Virus record (IMG/VR): IMGVR_UViG_3300048502_000077
Location: 2,665 to 66,664 of that record
Origin: a virus
Taxonomy: Duplodnaviria; Caudoviricetes
Reading direction: 5' to 3' (one strand)
Length of the DNA stretch: 64,000 nt
Shown: one piece after another, positions 43,767-49,801 of the stretch
Position numbering within the stretch: the stretch's first letter is position 1
Layout: each line of letters begins with the position of its first letter
Made by a program: the position numbers and the translations under genes
Notes under the pieces: model-generated
The model's database searches: none
What the model saw: only the letters and a program-made list of their open reading frames with translations
Told to the model about the DNA's origin: nothing

Positions 43767-44171
43767 AATGCACCGATCCGCGTGGCCATAGCTACCAAAC
43801 CAAGCGCGAGCGTTATGGCGATGATGCGGACGGCAATCGCGGTATTTGGCAAACATACCAAGAGTGCCGCTTTTGTCACGAAGAACCCGACGCAGAGGAC
43901 GAAGAATGAAACTCTCCGAAGAACTCCTGGACGCCATCGACGGTGGCGAGGAATGCGCAGGCCGCGACAGCCGACTGACCGAGTGGGCGCGCCAAGCTGA
44001 GCATCTGGAATTATGCCGCGAATCTTTGCTTACAACGCTTGCCGAGATTTCCAAGGGCGCAGGCGAAGTGGCGATTGCGGTGAGTGGTGGCAGCGTCTCC
44101 AGTGAGGCGGTCCAGCGTTACGCGGCATCTGTCAAGTCGTTTGCCGATGCGGCGATCAAGGTGGGACGGCG

Positions 44172-44705
44172 ATGAAGCCAATGTCTCCAACGCAGGAGAA
44201 AATGCTCAGGCAGCTGACCATGCGGCACGCTCATGCTGGAACTGCGGAATTGATGTTGCAGACGGGACTGACCAGCGCCATGGCGGTCGATTGGGTGCTC
44301 AACGCCCTGCATCGGCGCGGGCTCATTACCTTCGGAGACGAAGGTACTCCAGTCATCACCGATGCCGGCAATGCAGCCCTCGGCATAAATACGTTGACCG
44401 CTGTGCGCGACGTGCGTACAGTGACACCTTGCGTCAATACCGACGCTTCGCTAAACAAATCGGGAGTTACGAAAATGGCAAAAGCCAAGATCCTTCGCAC
44501 GTACATCATTCGCGACACAAAGACCAAGGCCCCGAAGGCGCTGGTCGAATCCACTTCAGGCCCCGCCGCACTGCGGTTCTACATCAAGGGCGAGTTCACT
44601 GTCGGCTATGCCGAGCAGGCGGATCTGCGCGAGGCGATGAAGGCGGATGTGCCGGAGCTCAAGGACGACGGCAGCGAGGATGCGACCGACGAAGCGGCGG
44701 TATAG
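44172..44705 (+). CDS. Winged-helix protein, probably fused in this sequence to a separate small ORF starting near 44475 (MAKAKIL)
   Basis: SPTQ.KML..L...; V...L.AL..RGLI......T..G..AL; internal GGGAG RBS before MAKAK. Confidence 0.5.
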   Translation: MKPMSPTQEKMLRQLTMRHAHAGTAELMLQTGLTSAMAVDWVLNALHRRGLITFGDEGTPVITDAGNAALGINTLTAVRDVRTVTPCVNTDASLNKSGVTKMAKAKILRTYIIRDTKTKAPKALVESTSGPAALRFYIKGEFTVGYAEQADLREAMKADVPELKDDGSEDATDEAAV

Positions 44706-44707
44706 TC

Positions 44708-45565
44708 ATGCCCTTCGCTCGCCTTCTGGACTGCTCGAAAGAGCAGTATCATGCCGATCCGACTGAAGTGCCATCTCTCAGTTATTCGGTCGCGAAAATA
44801 CTGCTTACCGAGTCGCCGATGCATGCGTATTACTACCACCCGCGTCTGGGTGGTCACGTACGCGAGCAAACCAAAGCGATGGGGAAGGGACAGGTGATTC
44901 ATAAGCTCTTGCTCGGCATTGGTGCGGATATCGTTGTTGTCCGTGCGGACAATTTCCGAACGAAAGCCGCGCAAGAGCTTCGGGATGCGGCCATTGCGGC
45001 AGGCAAGACGCCGATTATCGCGCATGAATACGATGGAATTGTCGCGGCAGCGGAAACCATTCGCGAGCGGCTGGCTGAGTATGATATTGATCTGATGGCG
45101 CTCCATGCGCTGCGAGAACAGGCCTTCGAATGGGATGAGGAAACCGAGAACGGCCCGGTCCGCTGCCGCGGAATGGCGGATTACTTAGACCTGACCAATG
45201 GCGTGCTACTGGATCCTAAGTCGGCCGCCTGTGCGCATCCGCTCAAAGTCAAACGGATCATCACGGATATGGCCTATGACATTCAGGCGGCGGCCTACTC
45301 AAGTGCGGTGGAAAAACTGAATCCGGAACTGTTGGGACGCGTGGACTTTGGCTGGCCGTTTGTTGAACTGGAGGCACCTTACGCTGTGTTGCCGGCACGG
45401 CCGACTGAATCAATGAAGGAAATGGGCCGCATGCGGTGGCGTCGAGCTGTGTTGTTGTGGCAGAAGTGCCTGAGTACCGGAAAGTGGCCCGGGTATTCGG
45501 ATGGCTGGGTGAACATGGCGCCTACCGACTGGGCGATGTCGCAGGAGCTGGAGGCGCAGGAGTGA
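44708..45565 (+). CDS. PD-(D/E)XK exonuclease, exonuclease VIII/RecE-like (DUF3799)
   Basis: YHAD....PSLS.S.AK.LL..SP.HA; AM..G..(I/L)H..LLG; RCRG..D.L......D.K; Y..QAA.Y; LE.PYA. Confidence 0.8.
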   Translation: MPFARLLDCSKEQYHADPTEVPSLSYSVAKILLTESPMHAYYYHPRLGGHVREQTKAMGKGQVIHKLLLGIGADIVVVRADNFRTKAAQELRDAAIAAGKTPIIAHEYDGIVAAAETIRERLAEYDIDLMALHALREQAFEWDEETENGPVRCRGMADYLDLTNGVLLDPKSAACAHPLKVKRIITDMAYDIQAAAYSSAVEKLNPELLGRVDFGWPFVELEAPYAVLPARPTESMKEMGRMRWRRAVLLWQKCLSTGKWPGYSDGWVNMAPTDWAMSQELEAQE

Positions 45566-45855
45566 GCAATCGAATCTTGGCCCCCCTTACGCTACTGGCG
45601 CTGCCAGGCTGCGCCGTCGCCCCCAACACGCTGCACATGGGCGTGGAGCACATCTCCAGCATTGAACAGCACTTGGTGAGCGACCCTACCAATGTAGGCG
45701 TGGAGGTCGCGACGGTGTCGGCGATCTGGCGTCCGACCCGCCACACATACATCGAGGTCCAGGACGGCTATATCTTCAATGGCGCCTATTTCGCCGGGCG
45801 TGATCGGGAGATTTTCGAGGCGCGCGCTGGCGTGGCACTTGAGCTGAAGCCATGA
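45562..45855 (+). CDS. Small lipoprotein with a beta-rich domain
   Basis: MSNRILAPLTLLALPG/C lipobox; alternating beta strands; ends EIFEARAGVALELKP. Confidence 0.6.
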   Translation: MSNRILAPLTLLALPGCAVAPNTLHMGVEHISSIEQHLVSDPTNVGVEVATVSAIWRPTRHTYIEVQDGYIFNGAYFAGRDREIFEARAGVALELKP

Positions 45856-45903
45856 GCCGCGAATTCCAACGTCAGCTTATTTTTAGAGGACAGGTGTGAA
45901 CCC

Positions 45904-47346
45904 ATGAAAATCAATTCCCTGCGTATCACGGGTTTCAAGCGCGTGATTGAAGTTCACATCGTTCCTGGTAGTCGCATAGTCAGGATCACCGGACCCAATG
46001 AGGCCGGCAAGAGCAGCATCTTGGATGCTATTTGGGTGGCAATCCGCGGTGCAGCAGTGCGCCGTCGAAGCCATTAACACCAGAGGCCAACGAGGCCATC
46101 ATTGAGGTTGGATCTCGGCGAGATCATTGTCCGTCGCGAATTCCACAAAACAGAGTCCGCCGACGAAACAACGCTGCTGCGTGTCGAGTCGCGCAAGGGC
46201 GCACGCTTTCCGTCTCCGCAAAAGATGCTGGACAAACTGTTCAGCAAACTGACCTTCGATCCGCTCGAATTCGCCCGCATGGAACCGGCAAAGCAATTCA
46301 CAGAATTGCAGAAATTCGTGCCGGGCTTTGACTTCGCGGACAACGCCGGCCGACGCCTGGCGCTGTTTGAAAAGCGCACCGAGTGGAACCGGATGGAGAA
46401 ACAGGAGCGCGGTGCTGCGGCCGTCATTGACTTGCATCCGGATACACCGGCCGCGCCCGTGGACGAAGAATCGCTGATCGAAGAACTGAACAATGCCGGT
46501 AAGTCCAATGCCACATTGGCGACGCGGCGAGAGCGGCGTACTGTCGCAGAAGAGTCCCTGAAACGATTGACCGCTGAAGCCGAGGTCCTTCGCGGCGGAA
46601 TTGATCAGCAAGTCGCAGCCGCCAGTCATCGCCTGGATAGGCGCGCCGATGATCTGCGCATGCGTATCAAGGAATTCGAGGACGCGTTGGCGCAGGCAAA
46701 GATAGAACTGGCACAACACCAGGAAAGCGCAGCCACAGAATTGCAGGCCGTGCGCAGCCAACTGGAACAACACGTCAAGACTAGAGAGGCGGACCGTGAC
46801 GAACTGAAGTCCAAGATCGACAGCGCCGAACCGCTGCCTGCCGAAATCGATGTGGACGAATTGGCGGCCAAACTGGATCGCGCGCGTACCGCCAATGATC
46901 TGTATCGCCGCAAGGAACGGCGTGATACGCATATCAAGCATGCTGAGGCCGCCAAGTCCGAAGCCGATGCGCTGACTGCTGCAATAGAACTGGTTGACAA
47001 GGAAAAGCGCGAGGCCATTACCGCAGCCGCCATGCCGGTCAAGGGACTGGGCTTCGGGGCCAATGAGATCCTCTACAATGACCTACCGTTCGCCCAAGCG
47101 AGCGATGCTGTGCGACTGCGCGTGTCGGTAGCCATTGCCGCATCACAAGATCCGGAATTGAGGATATTGCGAATCAAGGAAGGGTCGCTGCTCGATAAGA
47201 ACGGCGTCAAGTTACTCGATGAGATTTGCGAGGAACACGATATGCAGGCATGGCTGGAAGTGGTCATGCAAGGCGAAGATGACCCCATGGCATGGGTGAT
47301 CGAGGCCGGGACGGTTAAGCATGGGCCGGCTGGGGGCGTGCAGTAA
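45904..47346 (+). CDS. SMC/SbcC-like ATPase with a coiled coil; two apparent sequencing frameshifts near 46050-46100
   Basis: MKI..L.I.GFKR.....I.P......ITGPNEAGKSSILDAI (Walker A); long coiled coil; signature-like LPF.QAS...LR.SVAIA; IKEGSLLD. Confidence 0.75.
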
Positions 47347-48287
47347 TGCCAATCGAATTCAAACCCGCCGTCCGCGGTAATGAACATCTGATCATCGGTC
47401 TGATTGGGGGAACCGGATCCGGCAAGACCTTTACAGGATTGGAACTGGCGGCAGGACTAACGCCGACCGGCAAGAAGTTCGCCATGATCGACACGGAAGC
47501 CGGGCGTGGGCTGCACTACGCAGACTATCAGCAGTTTGCTAACCGATATGATCATGCGGACTTGCGGGCACCGTTCCGGCCGGATACGTACCGCGAGGCG
47601 ATCTTTGCGGCAGAGGATGCGGGCTATCCGGTGATCATGGTCGATAGCTGCTCCCACGAGTGGGCTGGTGCCGGCGGCGTGATCGATTGGCAGGAGGAAG
47701 AACTTGACCGGATGGCCGGTGACGATTGGAAGAAACGCGAGTCGTGCAAAATGGCCGCATGGATTAAACCGAAGATGGCGCATAAGCAGATGGTACAGAA
47801 ACTGCTGCAGTTACGCGCGCATCTGATCCTGTGTTTCCGCGCGGAGGAAAAGGTCGACATCGTTAAAGAGGACGGTAAAACCAAGATCGTGCCAGCACAA
47901 CGACGCACGGGTCTAAATGGCTGGGTGCCGATCTGCGAGAAGCATCTGCCGTTCGAACTGACGTGCAGTTTCCTCTTTACCGAGGAAGCTCCTGGCTTTC
48001 CCAAGCCGATCAAACTGGAAGGCCAGCATAGGAAGTTTTTTCCGCTGGATCAGCCGGTAGATCGCGAGTCCGGACGGCTACTGGCAGAATGGGCCGCGAA
48101 CGCGCCAAAAATCAACGCGCCATCGCAGGACCAAGTCGCCTCCCTAATCAAACTCTATGAAACCTGCGATGCATCAGGCTTCGCCAAACTCGAGACCGAC
48201 CGCAAAGCCTGGTGGTCGATGATCAAGCCGCAGCAGGCGGTGCTTAAAACGGTGTCGGATCAGGCGAGAGCCCGACTCGGACTATAA
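47346..48287 (+). CDS. AAA_24/Sak4-like ATPase (recombination)
   Basis: IGLIGGTGSGKTFT.L; IDTE.GR...YAD; PF.P..Y..AI..AE..G..VI.VDS.SHEW.G.GG. Confidence 0.8.
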   Translation: MPIEFKPAVRGNEHLIIGLIGGTGSGKTFTGLELAAGLTPTGKKFAMIDTEAGRGLHYADYQQFANRYDHADLRAPFRPDTYREAIFAAEDAGYPVIMVDSCSHEWAGAGGVIDWQEEELDRMAGDDWKKRESCKMAAWIKPKMAHKQMVQKLLQLRAHLILCFRAEEKVDIVKEDGKTKIVPAQRRTGLNGWVPICEKHLPFELTCSFLFTEEAPGFPKPIKLEGQHRKFFPLDQPVDRESGRLLAEWAANAPKINAPSQDQVASLIKLYETCDASGFAKLETDRKAWWSMIKPQQAVLKTVSDQARARLGL

Positions 48288-48305
48288 TTTCAACGGGAGA
48301 TTTTC

Positions 48306-48968
48306 ATGCGAACCTATCAAGTAATAATTACCGGCAAAACACCGCTGCTAATGCATCACGACAATATTGACTGGGCAGACTTCATGGACGCATGGAAATC
48401 TGATCCAGCCAATAAACAGGGAAGCAAAGCCGGTGATGATAGGGCGCCAGCATGGAGATGGCTGGGATGTGTGTACCACGATGACAAGATAGTTTCGATA
48501 CCGCAGACCAATGTTATGAAATCGCTTATGGAGGGCGGGGCGATGGTTCCGGTTCCTGGAGGTAAAAACGGTAAGACTTTCAAATCACAGACACAATCCG
48601 GAATGATGAGTGTGGAACCGTTCTGGAGTCTGCGGGTTAACGGCGCAACCATTAAATGGTCGGACATTGAGAGCCTTAAGGATTTGAAAGAATTTTCTAA
48701 GCATAAGGATGCGGCAAGAGCGCTCGGATTTGAACTGCTCGTGAAGCGGGCCGCCGTGGGATCCGCGAAGCACATTCGCGTGCGCCCTCAGTTCGCTGCC
48801 GGCTGGCAAGCAATTGGGTCTATTGCGGTGTGGGACGAACAAATAACTGACAGAGCCCTTGCTGATATTTTTGCGTATGCAGGACAGTACAAAGGGATCG
48901 GTGATTGGCGTCCGGGCGCGCCGAAGAAGCCCGGCCCGTATGGGACGTTTGAAGCGAAGATCGTGTGA
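48306..48968 (+). CDS. Stand-alone RAMP/Cas7(Csm3)-like protein, candidate guide-RNA-binding effector (Vipr-like)
   Basis: GGGAG RBS. RRM beta1 motif YQVIITGKTPLLMH, alpha1 motif VSIPQTNVMKSLMEG, and C-terminal G-rich loop GQYKGIGDWRPGAPKKPGPYGTFE parallel Csm3 TPLHIG / IPGSSLKG / LGG..SRGYG. Judged by eye. Confidence 0.7.
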   Translation: MRTYQVIITGKTPLLMHHDNIDWADFMDAWKSDPANKQGSKAGDDRAPAWRWLGCVYHDDKIVSIPQTNVMKSLMEGGAMVPVPGGKNGKTFKSQTQSGMMSVEPFWSLRVNGATIKWSDIESLKDLKEFSKHKDAARALGFELLVKRAAVGSAKHIRVRPQFAAGWQAIGSIAVWDEQITDRALADIFAYAGQYKGIGDWRPGAPKKPGPYGTFEAKIV

Positions 48969-48975
48969 TCAGATG

Positions 48976-49055
48976 GGCCGGGCTGGGCACGGAGAGGCAC
49001 GGCCGGGCATGGCGAGGCATGGCAGGGCGCGGCCGGGCATGGTGTGGCAAGGGGT
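48976..49055 (+). repeat. Tandem pentamer array GG(Y)NN x15 (plus a terminal GGGGT), putative guide ncRNA
   Basis: GGCCG GGCTG GGCAC GGAGA GGCAC GGCCG GGCAT GGCGA GGCAT GGCAG GGCGC GGCCG GGCAT GGTGT GGCAA GGGGT. Starts 7 nt after the stop of 48306-48968. Confidence 0.9.
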
Positions 49056-49076
49056 CTATGACCAAAGGATGTTAAG

Positions 49077-49580
49077 ATGACTGAAACAAAACATTTCCCG
49101 TGGGATGAAGGCATTCCGACGAAACCAGATGTGGATGCGCTGTTGAAGCAATGGCCGCCGGAAACAATCAAGGCAGGCGAATGGAAGATTACCGATGAGC
49201 AGGCCAAGCCATTGATCGGAAATCCAAATCGAATTCGTTATAGGACCGTGTACGCCGCGTGGATTGCGCGTTTAAAGGCAGATCATTCCATTGTTTTGTA
49301 TCGGTCCAAACAGTTGGGATTTTACTGCCCGACGCCGGAGGAGATCTTCTCTCGCACGCATCCAACACTACAGAGCGCTGGCAGAAAGATTGGCGCCCAG
49401 CTCAAAAACGTAGGTCTGGCGAAGCCAGAGACAGAAATCGGCAAGCAGACGCAGGATCATCATGGCAGATTGCTGCACGCGCAAAAACGAGAACTGAAAA
49501 AGGCGAGAATGAATTTATTGCCGCCAACTTCAGTTGCCGAGACTCCTCGTATATCGCCACCATCTAAGGCGAATCGGTGA
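49077..49580 (+). CDS. Accessory protein of the RAMP-array locus (winged-helix-like plus helical tail)
   Basis: GIPTKPDVD.L...W.....G...I.......IG.....RY.TV..AW..RL......V......GF. The true start could be ATG 49058 if there is a 1-nt error. Confidence 0.6.
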   Translation: MTETKHFPWDEGIPTKPDVDALLKQWPPETIKAGEWKITDEQAKPLIGNPNRIRYRTVYAAWIARLKADHSIVLYRSKQLGFYCPTPEEIFSRTHPTLQSAGRKIGAQLKNVGLAKPETEIGKQTQDHHGRLLHAQKRELKKARMNLLPPTSVAETPRISPPSKANR

Positions 49581-49801
49581 GTGAGGCTGTGACACTATTC
49601 ACCGACGCAGATGAGCGTCACGTTGTGACTATCGCAGTCGCCGCGATATCTCTGCACGCACTTCTGACGCGCCCGGAATTGGACGCTGTCATGCCAACCG
49701 GGATGCCGTATTTCGCGCTCGACGGGCCACAGATGGTTGCCCACGCCTTCGATATTGCCGAACTGTTCATCGCCGAGGCCGAGAAACGATATGGTGGATG
49801 A
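49577..49801 (+). CDS. Hypothetical protein
   Basis: Coupled GTGA start; A..AF.IA..F..E pattern. Confidence 0.55.
   Translation: MSEAVTLFTDADERHVVTIAVAAISLHALLTRPELDAVMPTGMPYFALDGPQMVAHAFDIAELFIAEAEKRYGG

What the first reader, a model, noticed from the sequence alone, without database searches (positions are those of the whole stretch)
48306..49580. Compact phage RNA-guided system: solo RAMP/Cas7-like gene + GGYNN pentamer array + accessory ORF
Seen in sequence: a 220-aa ORF is followed 7 nt after its stop by 15 exact-phase 5-nt units with a constant GG(C/T) and a variable dinucleotide, then a coupled 167-aa ORF. There is no cas1/cas2, nuclease or classical repeat-spacer array anywhere in the window. 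Established: the three diagnostic RAMP motifs (beta1 TPL-h-h, alpha1 IP-x-S/N-x-K, C-terminal G-rich loop) define the Cas7/Csm3 backbone proteins that polymerise along crRNA at a fixed number of nucleotides per subunit. Inference: a 5-nt-periodic RNA next to a lone RAMP suggests a filament in which each subunit grips GGY and displays NN to a target. That would be a programmable, non-contiguous guide code, plausibly for silencing competing phages or host genes. From memory this matches the recently reported VIPR (viral interference programmable repeat) systems; I have not verified that.
Basis: partly seen in the sequence, partly recalled or inferred. Interest (0 to 1): 0.96.

Follow-up and report, generated by a model that had tools for sequence, protein, structure and literature searches.

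The report
Phage VIPR locus: Vipr, vrRNA, vap
A phage from a peat metagenome carries a complete copy of the recently published VIPR system: a CRISPR-like RNA-binding protein, one guide RNA made of 15 GGY-NN pentamers, and a small accessory gene.

Summary

- **Protein (48306-48968, 220 aa).** Its family profile matches the solved SUSP1 Vipr protein (PDB 36pp) at E 7.5e-17. A pLDDT-97.7 model has a Csm3/Cmr4-like RAMP fold (Z 10.4). The SUSP1 residues that grip the two guanines, and the G-loop arginine of the pyrimidine pocket, are conserved as H17, R160, D200, W201 and R202.
- **Array.** Seven bases after the stop codon lie 15 in-phase pentamers (14 GGY, one GGA). They are followed by GG and a 4-bp hairpin at 49053-49063.
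- **Relatives.** In 79 of 80 related IMG/VR loci, same-strand GGYNN arrays flank the homologue: 302 arrays on the gene strand and none on the other. In 121 of 148 unique array ends the array finishes in a hairpin, against about 24 in shuffles, and there are 38 different stems.
- **Accessory gene.** The 167-aa ORF (49077-49580) follows vipr in at least 45 of 80 loci, while the other neighbours do not. It is at best a distant relative of SUSP1 vap1 (hhalign probability 67%).
- **No CRISPR parts.** There is no cas1, cas2 or CRISPR array.
- **Untested or not found.** The mechanism is inferred from the published SUSP1 work. No natural target was found. Expression of the array could not be tested.
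- **Differences from SUSP1.** This locus has a single vrRNA, placed between vipr and vap, and a hairpin tail instead of a pseudoknot.

The scan had already noted the array on this same window.

The parts
48306..48968 (+). vipr: a 220-aa stand-alone RAMP protein, homologous to SUSP1 Vipr
   Evidence: The ORF is. PDB sequence search hits 36pp 'SUSP1 Vipr protein' at E 5.9e-5 with the single sequence, 5.1e-10 with profile A1 and 7.5e-17 with profile A2. Pairwise BLASTP against phiSUSP1 ALH47069 gives 22% identity over the full length, E 5e-11. The AF2 model has pLDDT 97.7. The top structural matches are Csm3, Cmr4 and type VII Cas7, with Z up to 10.4. H17, R160, D200, W201 and R202 correspond to SUSP1 H17, R138, D177, W178 and R179.
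48976..49050 (+). vrRNA repeat tract: 15 GGY/NN pentamers. The NN series is CG TG AC GA AC CG AT GA AT AG GC CG AT GT AA. Unit 4 is GGA.
   Evidence: Read directly from the sequence and far above shuffles. Same-strand arrays flank the homologue in 79 of 80 related loci, with 302 arrays on the gene strand and 0 on the opposite strand.
49051..49064 (+). vrRNA 3' tail: terminal GG, then the hairpin GGTC-TAT-GACC (49053-49063), then A
   Evidence: A hairpin sits at this place in 121 of 148 unique array ends in relatives, against 23.8 +/- 4.7 (maximum 40) in shuffled tails. There are 38 distinct stems, for example GGTC/GACC, GGCC/GGCC, GCTGC/GCAGC, GTGC/GCAC and GCGCC/GGCGC, which is covariation.
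49077..49580 (+). vap-like accessory gene, 167 aa, preceded by AAGGA at 49065-49069
   Evidence: A homologue lies directly downstream of vipr and its arrays in 45 of 80 loci, whereas the other neighbours are not conserved. It has no Pfam, PHROG, PADLOC or NCBIfam family. The family profile against SUSP1 vap1 gives hhalign probability 67%, E 5.2e-5, over 31 columns. The Atlas model resembles winged-helix regulators only weakly, TM 0.42-0.49.
48267..49586 (.). Possible limits of the vipr-vrRNA-vap cassette (weak evidence)
   Evidence: One contig of the probable source peat sample joins 48266 to 49587 with 15 other letters between them. Its depth is 2 against 5.2, and the shorter side is only 30 nt (tables 5 and 5c).

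Best explanation
This is a VIPR (Viral Interference Programmable Repeat) locus carried by a tailed phage from peat.

Shown here:
- The 220-aa protein is a homologue of the structurally solved SUSP1 Vipr and has a RAMP fold.
- The 15 GGY/NN pentamers plus hairpin have the anatomy of a vrRNA.
- The protein, the array and the 167-aa gene travel together across many phage backbones.

Inferred from the published SUSP1 and P. fulva work:
- The array is transcribed with, or just behind, vipr.
- One Vipr protomer binds each pentamer. H17 and D200 read G1, R160 and W201 hold G2, and the next protomer pockets the pyrimidine.
- This forms a helical filament that displays the 15 NN dinucleotides.
- The dinucleotides pair with double-stranded DNA that reads NNxNNx..., with one base skipped per unit.
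- Binding there blocks transcription, most likely of a competing phage, prophage or satellite in the same host.
- The vap product, probably a small DNA-binding protein, enhances the effect.

The predicted target reads CGnTGnACnGAnACnCGnATnGAnATnAGnGCnCGnATnGTnAA on either strand. The real target is unknown.
For: - **Homology to solved Vipr.** Profile A2 hits the PDB chain 36pp_D 'SUSP1 Vipr protein' at E 7.5e-17, covering both halves. The single sequence gives 5.9e-5. Pairwise against phiSUSP1 gives E 5e-11.
- **Fold.** The AF2 model has pLDDT 97.7. Foldseek's best matches are chains of type III Csm and Cmr, type VII and type IV-A CRISPR effector complexes. In VIA-align the 24 best entries are CRISPR effector or RAMP structures, led by Csm3- and Cmr4-type chains, with Z 10.4 to 7.3.
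- **Contact residues.** The residues that paper 720927 names as GGY contacts (H17, R138, D177, W178, R179) align with H17, R160, D200, W201 and R202. These are invariant or nearly so among 119 diverse homologues.
- **Array.** 15 in-phase units, unique in the window and far beyond shuffles. This is within the published range of 9-16 units.
- **Co-occurrence.** 79 of 80 loci carry arrays, all 302 on the gene strand.
- **Tail.** A hairpin with covariation follows the array ends.
- **vap.** It is conserved next to vipr in 45 of 80 loci, while the other neighbours are not.
- **Setting.** The window is part of a virus record, and it has large terminase, portal, tail fibre, baseplate hub and primase genes.
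- **No CRISPR parts.** No cas1, cas2 or CRISPR array.
- **No self-target.** The best 1-nt-skip match in its own contig is 20 of 30 bases, which equals shuffled guides. The paper reports the same for its systems.
Against: - Nothing here shows that the array is transcribed or bound. The one metatranscriptome contig covers only 49510-49727.
- No natural target was found in IMG/VR, in GTDB genomes or in JGI metagenomes.
- Unit 4 has a purine (GGA) where the SUSP1 pocket excludes purines.
- The SUSP1 helix-1 residues of the pyrimidine pocket (E71, M72) align with N69 and V70 here, so that pocket differs.
- The tail is a 4-bp hairpin, not the pseudoknot of the SUSP1 clade.
- Identity to SUSP1 Vipr is only 22%.
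- No promoter-like site precedes the array.
- The link of the 167-aa protein to vap1 is weak.
Confidence: 0.92

Rival explanations
1. It belongs to the VIPR family, but it is not an active silencer of a competitor's DNA. It could be a decaying copy. Its single guide could regulate the phage's own or the host's genes. Or it could act as a decoy or shield against other phages' VIPR systems.
For: Only one vrRNA is present, whereas relatives have a median of 4 arrays. Unit 4 is degenerate, GGA. No target was found in any collection. A variant of the phage without the cassette may coexist in the same sample. The best partial matches lie in bacterial genes such as a GGDEF cyclase family, at 9-11 of 15 units.
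Against: Both ORFs are intact, and every tested contact residue is conserved. The array has 14 clean GGY units and an intact tail hairpin. Single-vrRNA systems are described as functional in the paper. There is no self-target in the phage. The bacterial partial matches are at chance level for a 596-Gb collection.
Confidence: 0.05
2. It is a stripped-down CRISPR-Cas remnant: a solo Cas7/Csm3 gene left over from a type III or type IV system. The G-rich repeat would be unrelated to the protein.
For: The closest solved folds outside Vipr are Csm3, Cmr4, type VII Cas7 and type IV Csf2.
Against: No Pfam RAMP or Cas family matches even at E 1. Identity to those chains is 9-14%, while the profile hits Vipr at E 7.5e-17. 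There is no cas1, cas2 or CRISPR array. The repeat has a 5-nt period, and it accompanies the gene in 79 of 80 loci, always on the same strand.
Confidence: 0.02
3. The pentamer tract is not a guide RNA. It is a DNA or RNA structural element between two genes, such as a G-quadruplex former, an attenuator or a recombination hotspot. Alternatively it is part of the overlapping 73-aa ORF 48859-49080.
For: GG at every fifth base could form two-tetrad quadruplexes. An ORF does overlap the tract. The fold of the whole intergenic RNA is no better than that of shuffles, z -1.35.
Against: A 5-nt period cannot be a codon repeat. Across 80 loci GGY stays fixed while NN and the number of units vary freely, and the arrays end in a covarying hairpin. 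The adjacent protein is homologous to one solved in complex with exactly such an RNA.
Confidence: 0.01

Closest known systems
VIPR system of Escherichia phage SUSP1 (type II; Vipr structure PDB 36pp; bioRxiv 10.64898/2026.04.26.720920, 10.64898/2026.04.26.720927 and 10.64898/2026.10.15.759431)
   Same: Both have a stand-alone RAMP protein with the same N-terminal beta-strand histidine, the same thumb arginine and the same G-loop GDWRP motif. Both have guide RNAs built of GGY/NN pentamers, 15 here against a published range of 9-16, that end in a structured tail. Both have a small accessory gene downstream of vipr. Both are phage-borne, lack cas genes and do not target their own genome.
   Different: - Protein identity is only 22%, and the lengths are 220 and 195 aa.
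- This locus has one vrRNA, placed between vipr and vap. SUSP1 has vap1 2 bases after vipr, one vrRNA upstream and three downstream.
- The tail is a 4-bp hairpin here, not a pseudoknot.
- The units are GC-rich (GGC) here and mostly GGT in SUSP1.
- The accessory protein is at best a distant relative of vap1.
- Here the locus lies inside a run of co-directional replication and recombination genes of an uncultured peat phage.
Cas7-family backbone subunits of class 1 CRISPR effectors (Csm3, Cmr4, type VII Cas7, type IV Csf2)
   Same: They share the RRM core, a thumb hairpin and a C-terminal glycine-rich loop. Structural matches reach Z 8-10.4 over about 150 residues. Both polymerise along a guide RNA with a fixed number of nucleotides per subunit. 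For Vipr this comes from the published structure.
   Different: The period is 5 nt with three bases sequestered, against 6 nt with one base flipped. There is no Pfam RAMP match. There are no partner Cas subunits, no CRISPR array and no adaptation genes. The guide information is non-contiguous.
Nuclease-free CRISPR interference by binding alone (type IV-A effectors, dCas9 CRISPRi)
   Same: The expected outcome is the same: RNA-guided binding of double-stranded DNA that blocks transcription without cutting. The paper draws this parallel.
   Different: The protein family, the guide architecture and the pairing rule all differ. No PAM is reported for VIPR. None of this was tested for the present locus.

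Membership tests
VIPR (Vipr + vrRNA + vap) | The protein is homologous to an experimentally characterised Vipr | tested here: met
   The PDB chain 36pp_D 'SUSP1 Vipr protein' is the top hit at E 5.9e-5 (single sequence), 5.1e-10 (profile A1) and 7.5e-17 (profile A2, both halves aligned). BLASTP against phiSUSP1 ALH47069 gives E 5e-11 over the full length.
VIPR (Vipr + vrRNA + vap) | A minimal RAMP fold with an RRM core, a thumb and a G-loop | tested here: met
   The AF2 model has pLDDT 97.7. Its order of elements is beta1 2-10, helix 67-78, long hairpin 143-163, strand 168-175, helix 182-196, glycine-rich loop 197-213 and strand 215-219. Csm3 and Cmr4 match at Z 10.4-10.1, and the best Foldseek match has E 6e-6.
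VIPR (Vipr + vrRNA + vap) | The residues that contact GGY in the SUSP1 structure are conserved (H17, R138, D177, W178, R179) | tested here: met
   They align with H17, R160, D200, W201 and R202 (the residues are named). All are invariant or at least 90% conserved in the 119-sequence alignment A2. The helix-1 pocket residues E71 and M72 are not conserved; they align with N69 and V70.
VIPR (Vipr + vrRNA + vap) | An adjacent same-strand tandem array of GGY/NN pentamers, 9-16 units per vrRNA | tested here: met
   15 units lie at 48976-49050, 14 GGY and 1 GGA. Shuffled windows reach at most 5 units. Homologues carry arrays in 79 of 80 loci, with 302 on the gene strand and 0 on the other.
VIPR (Vipr + vrRNA + vap) | A conserved structured 3' tail after the repeat tract | tested here: met
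   The hairpin GGTC-TAT-GACC lies at 49053-49063. In relatives 121 of 148 unique array ends have a hairpin there, against 23.8 +/- 4.7 in shuffles, with 38 different stems. It is a simple hairpin, not the pseudoknot described for the SUSP1 clade.
VIPR (Vipr + vrRNA + vap) | An accessory vap gene in the locus | tested here: inconclusive
   A conserved 167-aa gene follows vipr in 45 of 80 loci. Its identity with one of vap1-6 is not settled. BLASTP against SUSP1 vap1 gives E 0.2. hhalign gives probability 67%, E 5.2e-5, over 31 columns. The sequences of vap2-6 were not available.
VIPR (Vipr + vrRNA + vap) | A viral or mobile setting without cas genes or a CRISPR array | tested here: met
   It is an IMG/VR virus record of 66,664 b with large terminase, portal, tail and primase genes. 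There are no cas1 or cas2 matches and no repeat-spacer array.
VIPR (Vipr + vrRNA + vap) | The vrRNA is expressed and forms a ribonucleoprotein with Vipr | not testable with these tools
   Only assembled contigs of public runs were available, and the single RNA-library contig covers 49510-49727, not the array.
VIPR (Vipr + vrRNA + vap) | The guide recognises DNA by the 1-nt-skip rule, with a natural target in a competing element | tested here: inconclusive
   No match better than chance was found. The best in its own contig is 20 of 30 bases. Seeded scans of IMG/VR, GTDB genomes and JGI metagenomes gave at most 25 of 30 bases, or 10-11 consecutive units. Only exact seeds could be searched.
CRISPR-Cas Cas7/Csm3 (RAMP, Pfam PF03787 and relatives) | A sequence match to a curated RAMP or Cas7 family | tested here: not met
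   Pfam gives no family at E up to 1. PADLOC gives none. NCBIfam gives only a chance-level hit.
CRISPR-Cas Cas7/Csm3 (RAMP, Pfam PF03787 and relatives) | Encoded within a cas operon next to a CRISPR array | tested here: not met
   The neighbouring genes are phage replication and recombination genes.
CRISPR-Cas Cas7/Csm3 (RAMP, Pfam PF03787 and relatives) | RAMP fold | tested here: met
   This shows a shared superfamily fold, not membership of the family.

The most novel reading that the evidence does not exclude
This clade would be a distinct architectural variant of VIPR. It has a 220-aa Vipr, a single vrRNA placed between vipr and vap inside a polycistronic early operon, and a minimal 4-bp hairpin handle in place of a pseudoknot. 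The guide would therefore have to be cut out of an mRNA. The whole 1.3-kb module would behave as a gain-and-loss cassette, and its guide would differ between co-occurring strains of one peat phage.
Probability: 0.2. Interest if true: 0.5.

Novelty: new member of a known kind. Interest (0 to 1): 0.35.

Why it matters
VIPR was described only in 2026, as a viral, pre-CRISPR form of RNA-guided DNA recognition with a gapped code. This locus adds little to the concept. It is, however, a clean and compact natural example from an uncultured peat phage: about 1.3 kb, one guide and a hairpin handle.

The family survey made here adds some evidence beyond the NCBI-based survey of the paper. In 80 IMG/VR loci the protein, the arrays and the accessory gene are nearly inseparable. 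In this clade the 3' handle is a covarying hairpin. Such a minimal version could be a convenient test case for how a vrRNA is processed and capped.

Tried and rejected
1. **Single-sequence AF2 model.** pLDDT was 36, so it was useless. It was replaced by the model made with alignment A2.
2. **Relatives in GTDB genomes by peptide patterns.** None were confirmed.
3. **blastn of the locus against GenBank phages.** No match. tblastn found only a 28%-identical gene in Mycobacterium prophage prophiBWHA-1.
[quoted passage not shown] - The phage's own contig gave 20 of 30 bases at best, the same as shuffled guides.
   - Exact seeds of 8-14 units were scanned in IMG/VR, in GTDB genomes and in JGI metagenomes. 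After rescoring, every hit stayed at 19-25 of 30 bases. For collections of these sizes that is the chance level.
   - The two patterns that stood out are not significant: a run of 10 units in one abundant phage, and 9-11 units in a GGDEF gene family.
5. **Test of the skip rule on 139 guides of related loci against the 0.6 Mb of fetched DNA.** Skips of 0, 1, 2 and 3 bases did not differ. The database is far too small for this test.
6. **Expression.** The only RNA-library contig covers 49510-49727 and not the array. All runs were available as contigs only, so nothing can be said about transcription.
7. **Rfam.** No family matched the region, and there is no hammerhead ribozyme. The fold of the whole array RNA is not better than that of shuffles.
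8. **Promoter scan.** Nothing precedes the array.
9. **vap.** No Pfam, PHROG, PADLOC or NCBIfam family and no PDB sequence relative. SUSP1 vap1 has too few homologues to build a second profile.
10. **Paper supplements.** None are held, so the locus could not be assigned to one of the seven VIPR types.
Full report
**What is in the sequence.** The 220-aa ORF runs 48306-48968 on the + strand and ends with TGA. Seven bases later, at 48976, fifteen 5-nt units begin in perfect phase and run to 49050. Fourteen start with GGC or GGT and one, unit 4, starts with GGA. The two bases after each GGY vary: CG TG AC GA AC CG AT GA AT AG GC CG AT GT AA. A further GG (49051-52) leads into a small hairpin, GGTC-TAT-GACC (49053-49063). 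AAGGA and the ATG of a 167-aa ORF (49077-49580) follow. This is the only array of its kind on either strand of the window. Dinucleotide-preserving shuffles of the window never give more than 5 strict GGYNN units in a row, against 11 here, or 15 if the GGA unit is allowed. The only correction is that one unit is GGA.

**Setting.** The window is bases 2665-66664 of a 66,664-b IMG/VR virus record that CheckV rates 89% complete. It encodes a large terminase, a portal, a tail fibre, a baseplate hub, a primase-helicase and an exonuclease VIII-like protein. Public runs that hold the stretch are peat metagenomes. The locus sits in a run of co-directional genes. Upstream are an SMC-like protein (phrog_1499) and an AAA_24 ATPase. 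The record has no cas1 or cas2, and the window has no CRISPR array.

**The protein.** Pfam finds nothing, and PHROGs gives only a family of unknown function. Against the sequences of all PDB chains, the best hit is 36pp, 'SUSP1 Vipr protein'. The E-value is 5.9e-5 with the single sequence, 5.1e-10 with a 30-sequence profile, and 7.5e-17 with a 119-sequence profile that aligns both halves of the protein.

I located the gene in the phiSUSP1 record (KT454805, 28474-29061). The pairwise alignment covers the whole length at 22% identity, E 5e-11. The cryo-EM paper names H17 and D177 as the readers of the first guanine, R138 and W178 as the holders of the second, and R179 as part of the pyrimidine pocket. 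In the alignment these correspond to H17, R160, D200, W201 and R202, which are invariant or nearly so across the family. The helix-1 part of the pyrimidine pocket is not conserved.

With the deep alignment, AlphaFold gives a model at pLDDT 97.7. Foldseek's best matches are chains of type III Csm and Cmr, type VII and type IV-A CRISPR effector complexes. In the VIA-align search the 24 best entries are all CRISPR effector or RAMP structures, led by Csm3- and Cmr4-type chains, with Z from 10.4 down to 7.3. The glycine-rich loop sits between the last helix and the last strand, where RAMPs have it.

**The array and the gene travel together.** The family is large. There are 1,202 hits in the 90%-clustered collection and 562 clusters at 50% identity. 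I fetched 80 IMG/VR loci with identities from 82% down to 24% and scanned them with a simple phase-aware script.

- Seventy-nine loci have GGYNN arrays of at least 7 units just upstream or downstream of the gene.
- All 302 arrays lie on the gene's strand and none on the other.
- The median is 4 arrays per locus and 12 units per array.
- The array ends are followed at once by a short hairpin. This holds for 121 of 148 unique ends, against 23.8 +/- 4.7 after shuffling the tails.
- There are 38 different stem sequences, which is covariation and therefore evidence for a structured RNA handle.

The window's GGTC/GACC hairpin is the commonest form. Loci that resemble SUSP1 more closely (L071-L079) have tails that begin GGGTAG, like the SUSP1 tails. 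The hairpin handle therefore looks like a feature of this clade.

**The accessory gene.** A homologue of the 167-aa protein lies directly after vipr and its arrays in 45 of 80 loci. The other neighbours of the window's locus are almost never shared: the AAA_24 ATPase is found in 1 locus, and the phrog_1499 protein and the next two ORFs in none. Vipr, vrRNA and this gene are thus the conserved unit, carried by different phage backbones.

The protein has no curated family. Against SUSP1 vap1 (ALH47068), BLASTP gives a colinear but insignificant alignment, E 0.2. The family profile gives hhalign probability 67%, E 5.2e-5, over a 31-residue stretch. The Atlas model resembles winged-helix regulators only weakly. 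That is in line with the paper's statement that the vap genes of several types encode predicted DNA-binding proteins, but it is a lead and not a result.

**Mechanism.** The papers show the following for SUSP1 and P. fulva. vrRNAs co-purify with Vipr. One protomer binds each pentamer in a right-handed filament. GGY is sequestered, and the NN bases pair with double-stranded DNA while every third target base is skipped. Binding represses transcription, and natural targets lie in competing satellites and prophages. Given the homology, the conserved contact residues and the identical RNA anatomy, I take the same mechanism to apply here. This is inference.

[quoted passage not shown] The phage does not target itself: the best match is 20 of 30 bases, the same as shuffled guides. 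The paper reports the same for its systems.

Only exact patterns can be scanned in the public collections, so I used seeds of 8-14 units and rescored the hits. Nothing rose above chance. Two things stood out and were set aside.

- Ten consecutive units match a non-coding site about 45 nt upstream of a gene in 15 near-identical IMG/VR contigs.
- Nine to eleven units match one conserved site of a Tll0287-GGDEF cyclase family in Betaproteobacteria, with the skipped bases on wobble positions.

Each is a single independent event, and for databases of these sizes events like these are expected by chance.

**Population data.** Contigs of a second peat study carry the locus at 95-99% identity. There the array is broken into very short contigs, and one of them continues with different in-phase units. 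In the probable source sample one low-depth contig joins 48266 to 49587, skipping vipr, the array and vap. Both are weak hints, resting on contigs only and on a 30-nt flank. They suggest that the guide varies between strains and that the module is a gain-and-loss cassette.

**Verdict.** This is a genuine VIPR locus. It is a new member of a published kind, not a new kind. It differs from the SUSP1 prototype in having a single vrRNA between vipr and vap, a hairpin rather than a pseudoknot tail, a longer and very divergent Vipr, and an accessory protein that is at most distantly related to vap1. I could not assign it to one of the seven published types, because the type tables are not held.

Noticed in passing
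window 48266-49587: In the probable source peat sample one contig joins 48266 directly to 49587, with 15 other letters (CGGGGGAGGCTGGGA) between them. This skips the end of the AAA_24 gene, vipr, the array and vap. Depth is 2 against 5.2, and the flank is only 30 nt. It is a possible VIPR-less variant of the same phage.
   Followed up: partly
window 48976-49030: In a second peat study the flanks are 95-99% identical, but the array is split into contigs of 44 and 61 nt. One of them runs on after 49028 with TGGGCACGGCGAGGCACGGCCG, which is in phase but has other NN bases. The guide may differ between strains.
   Followed up: partly
L098-L112 (e.g. L103:8579-8622, - strand): Fifteen near-identical IMG/VR contigs of a lower-GC phage match units 4-13 of the guide under the 1-nt-skip rule. 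That is 10 consecutive units and 22 of 30 bases. The site is non-coding and lies about 45 nt upstream of a gene that begins MANTIDQAFIKQFETEV. It counts as one independent event and is not significant alone.
   Followed up: partly
L087, L090, L093, L094, L096, L097: Six of the 13 seed hits in GTDB genomes fall at the same site of a Tll0287-like + GGDEF diguanylate cyclase family in Betaproteobacteria, including Thiobacillus. The match is antisense, covers 9-11 of 15 units, and in L097 (the one locus checked) puts the skipped bases on codon wobble positions (peptide ...TIRALISIRVS...). It is at chance level for the size of the collection.
   Followed up: partly
L002, L005, L006, L009-L011, L013 (e.g. 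L002:4783-4830): In loci with several arrays in tandem, the short tail hairpin is followed by a second, longer hairpin (for example GGACAGCAGTAATGCTGTCC) before the next array. These may be terminators or processing sites. The window's single array lacks this.
   Followed up: no
L063:2409-2608; L001:1437-1561; L061:5520-5649: Some relatives have uninterrupted runs of 25-40 pentamers, well beyond the 9-16 units given for one vrRNA. These may be fused or staggered arrays.
   Followed up: no
OQ417975.1 19924-20496 (hit H1): Mycobacterium prophage prophiBWHA-1 gene 43, annotated as a hypothetical protein, is a 28%-identical homologue of the window's Vipr. It is the only one that tblastn found among 50,697 GenBank phage records. 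I did not look for arrays beside it.
   Followed up: no
window 44084-48287: Upstream of vipr lie an exonuclease VIII-like gene, an SMC or coiled-coil ATPase-like gene (phrog_1499, with weak JetC and LmuB similarity) and an AAA_24 ATPase (phrog_1366). This looks like a phage recombination and replication block. These genes are not conserved next to vipr in relatives.
   Followed up: partly
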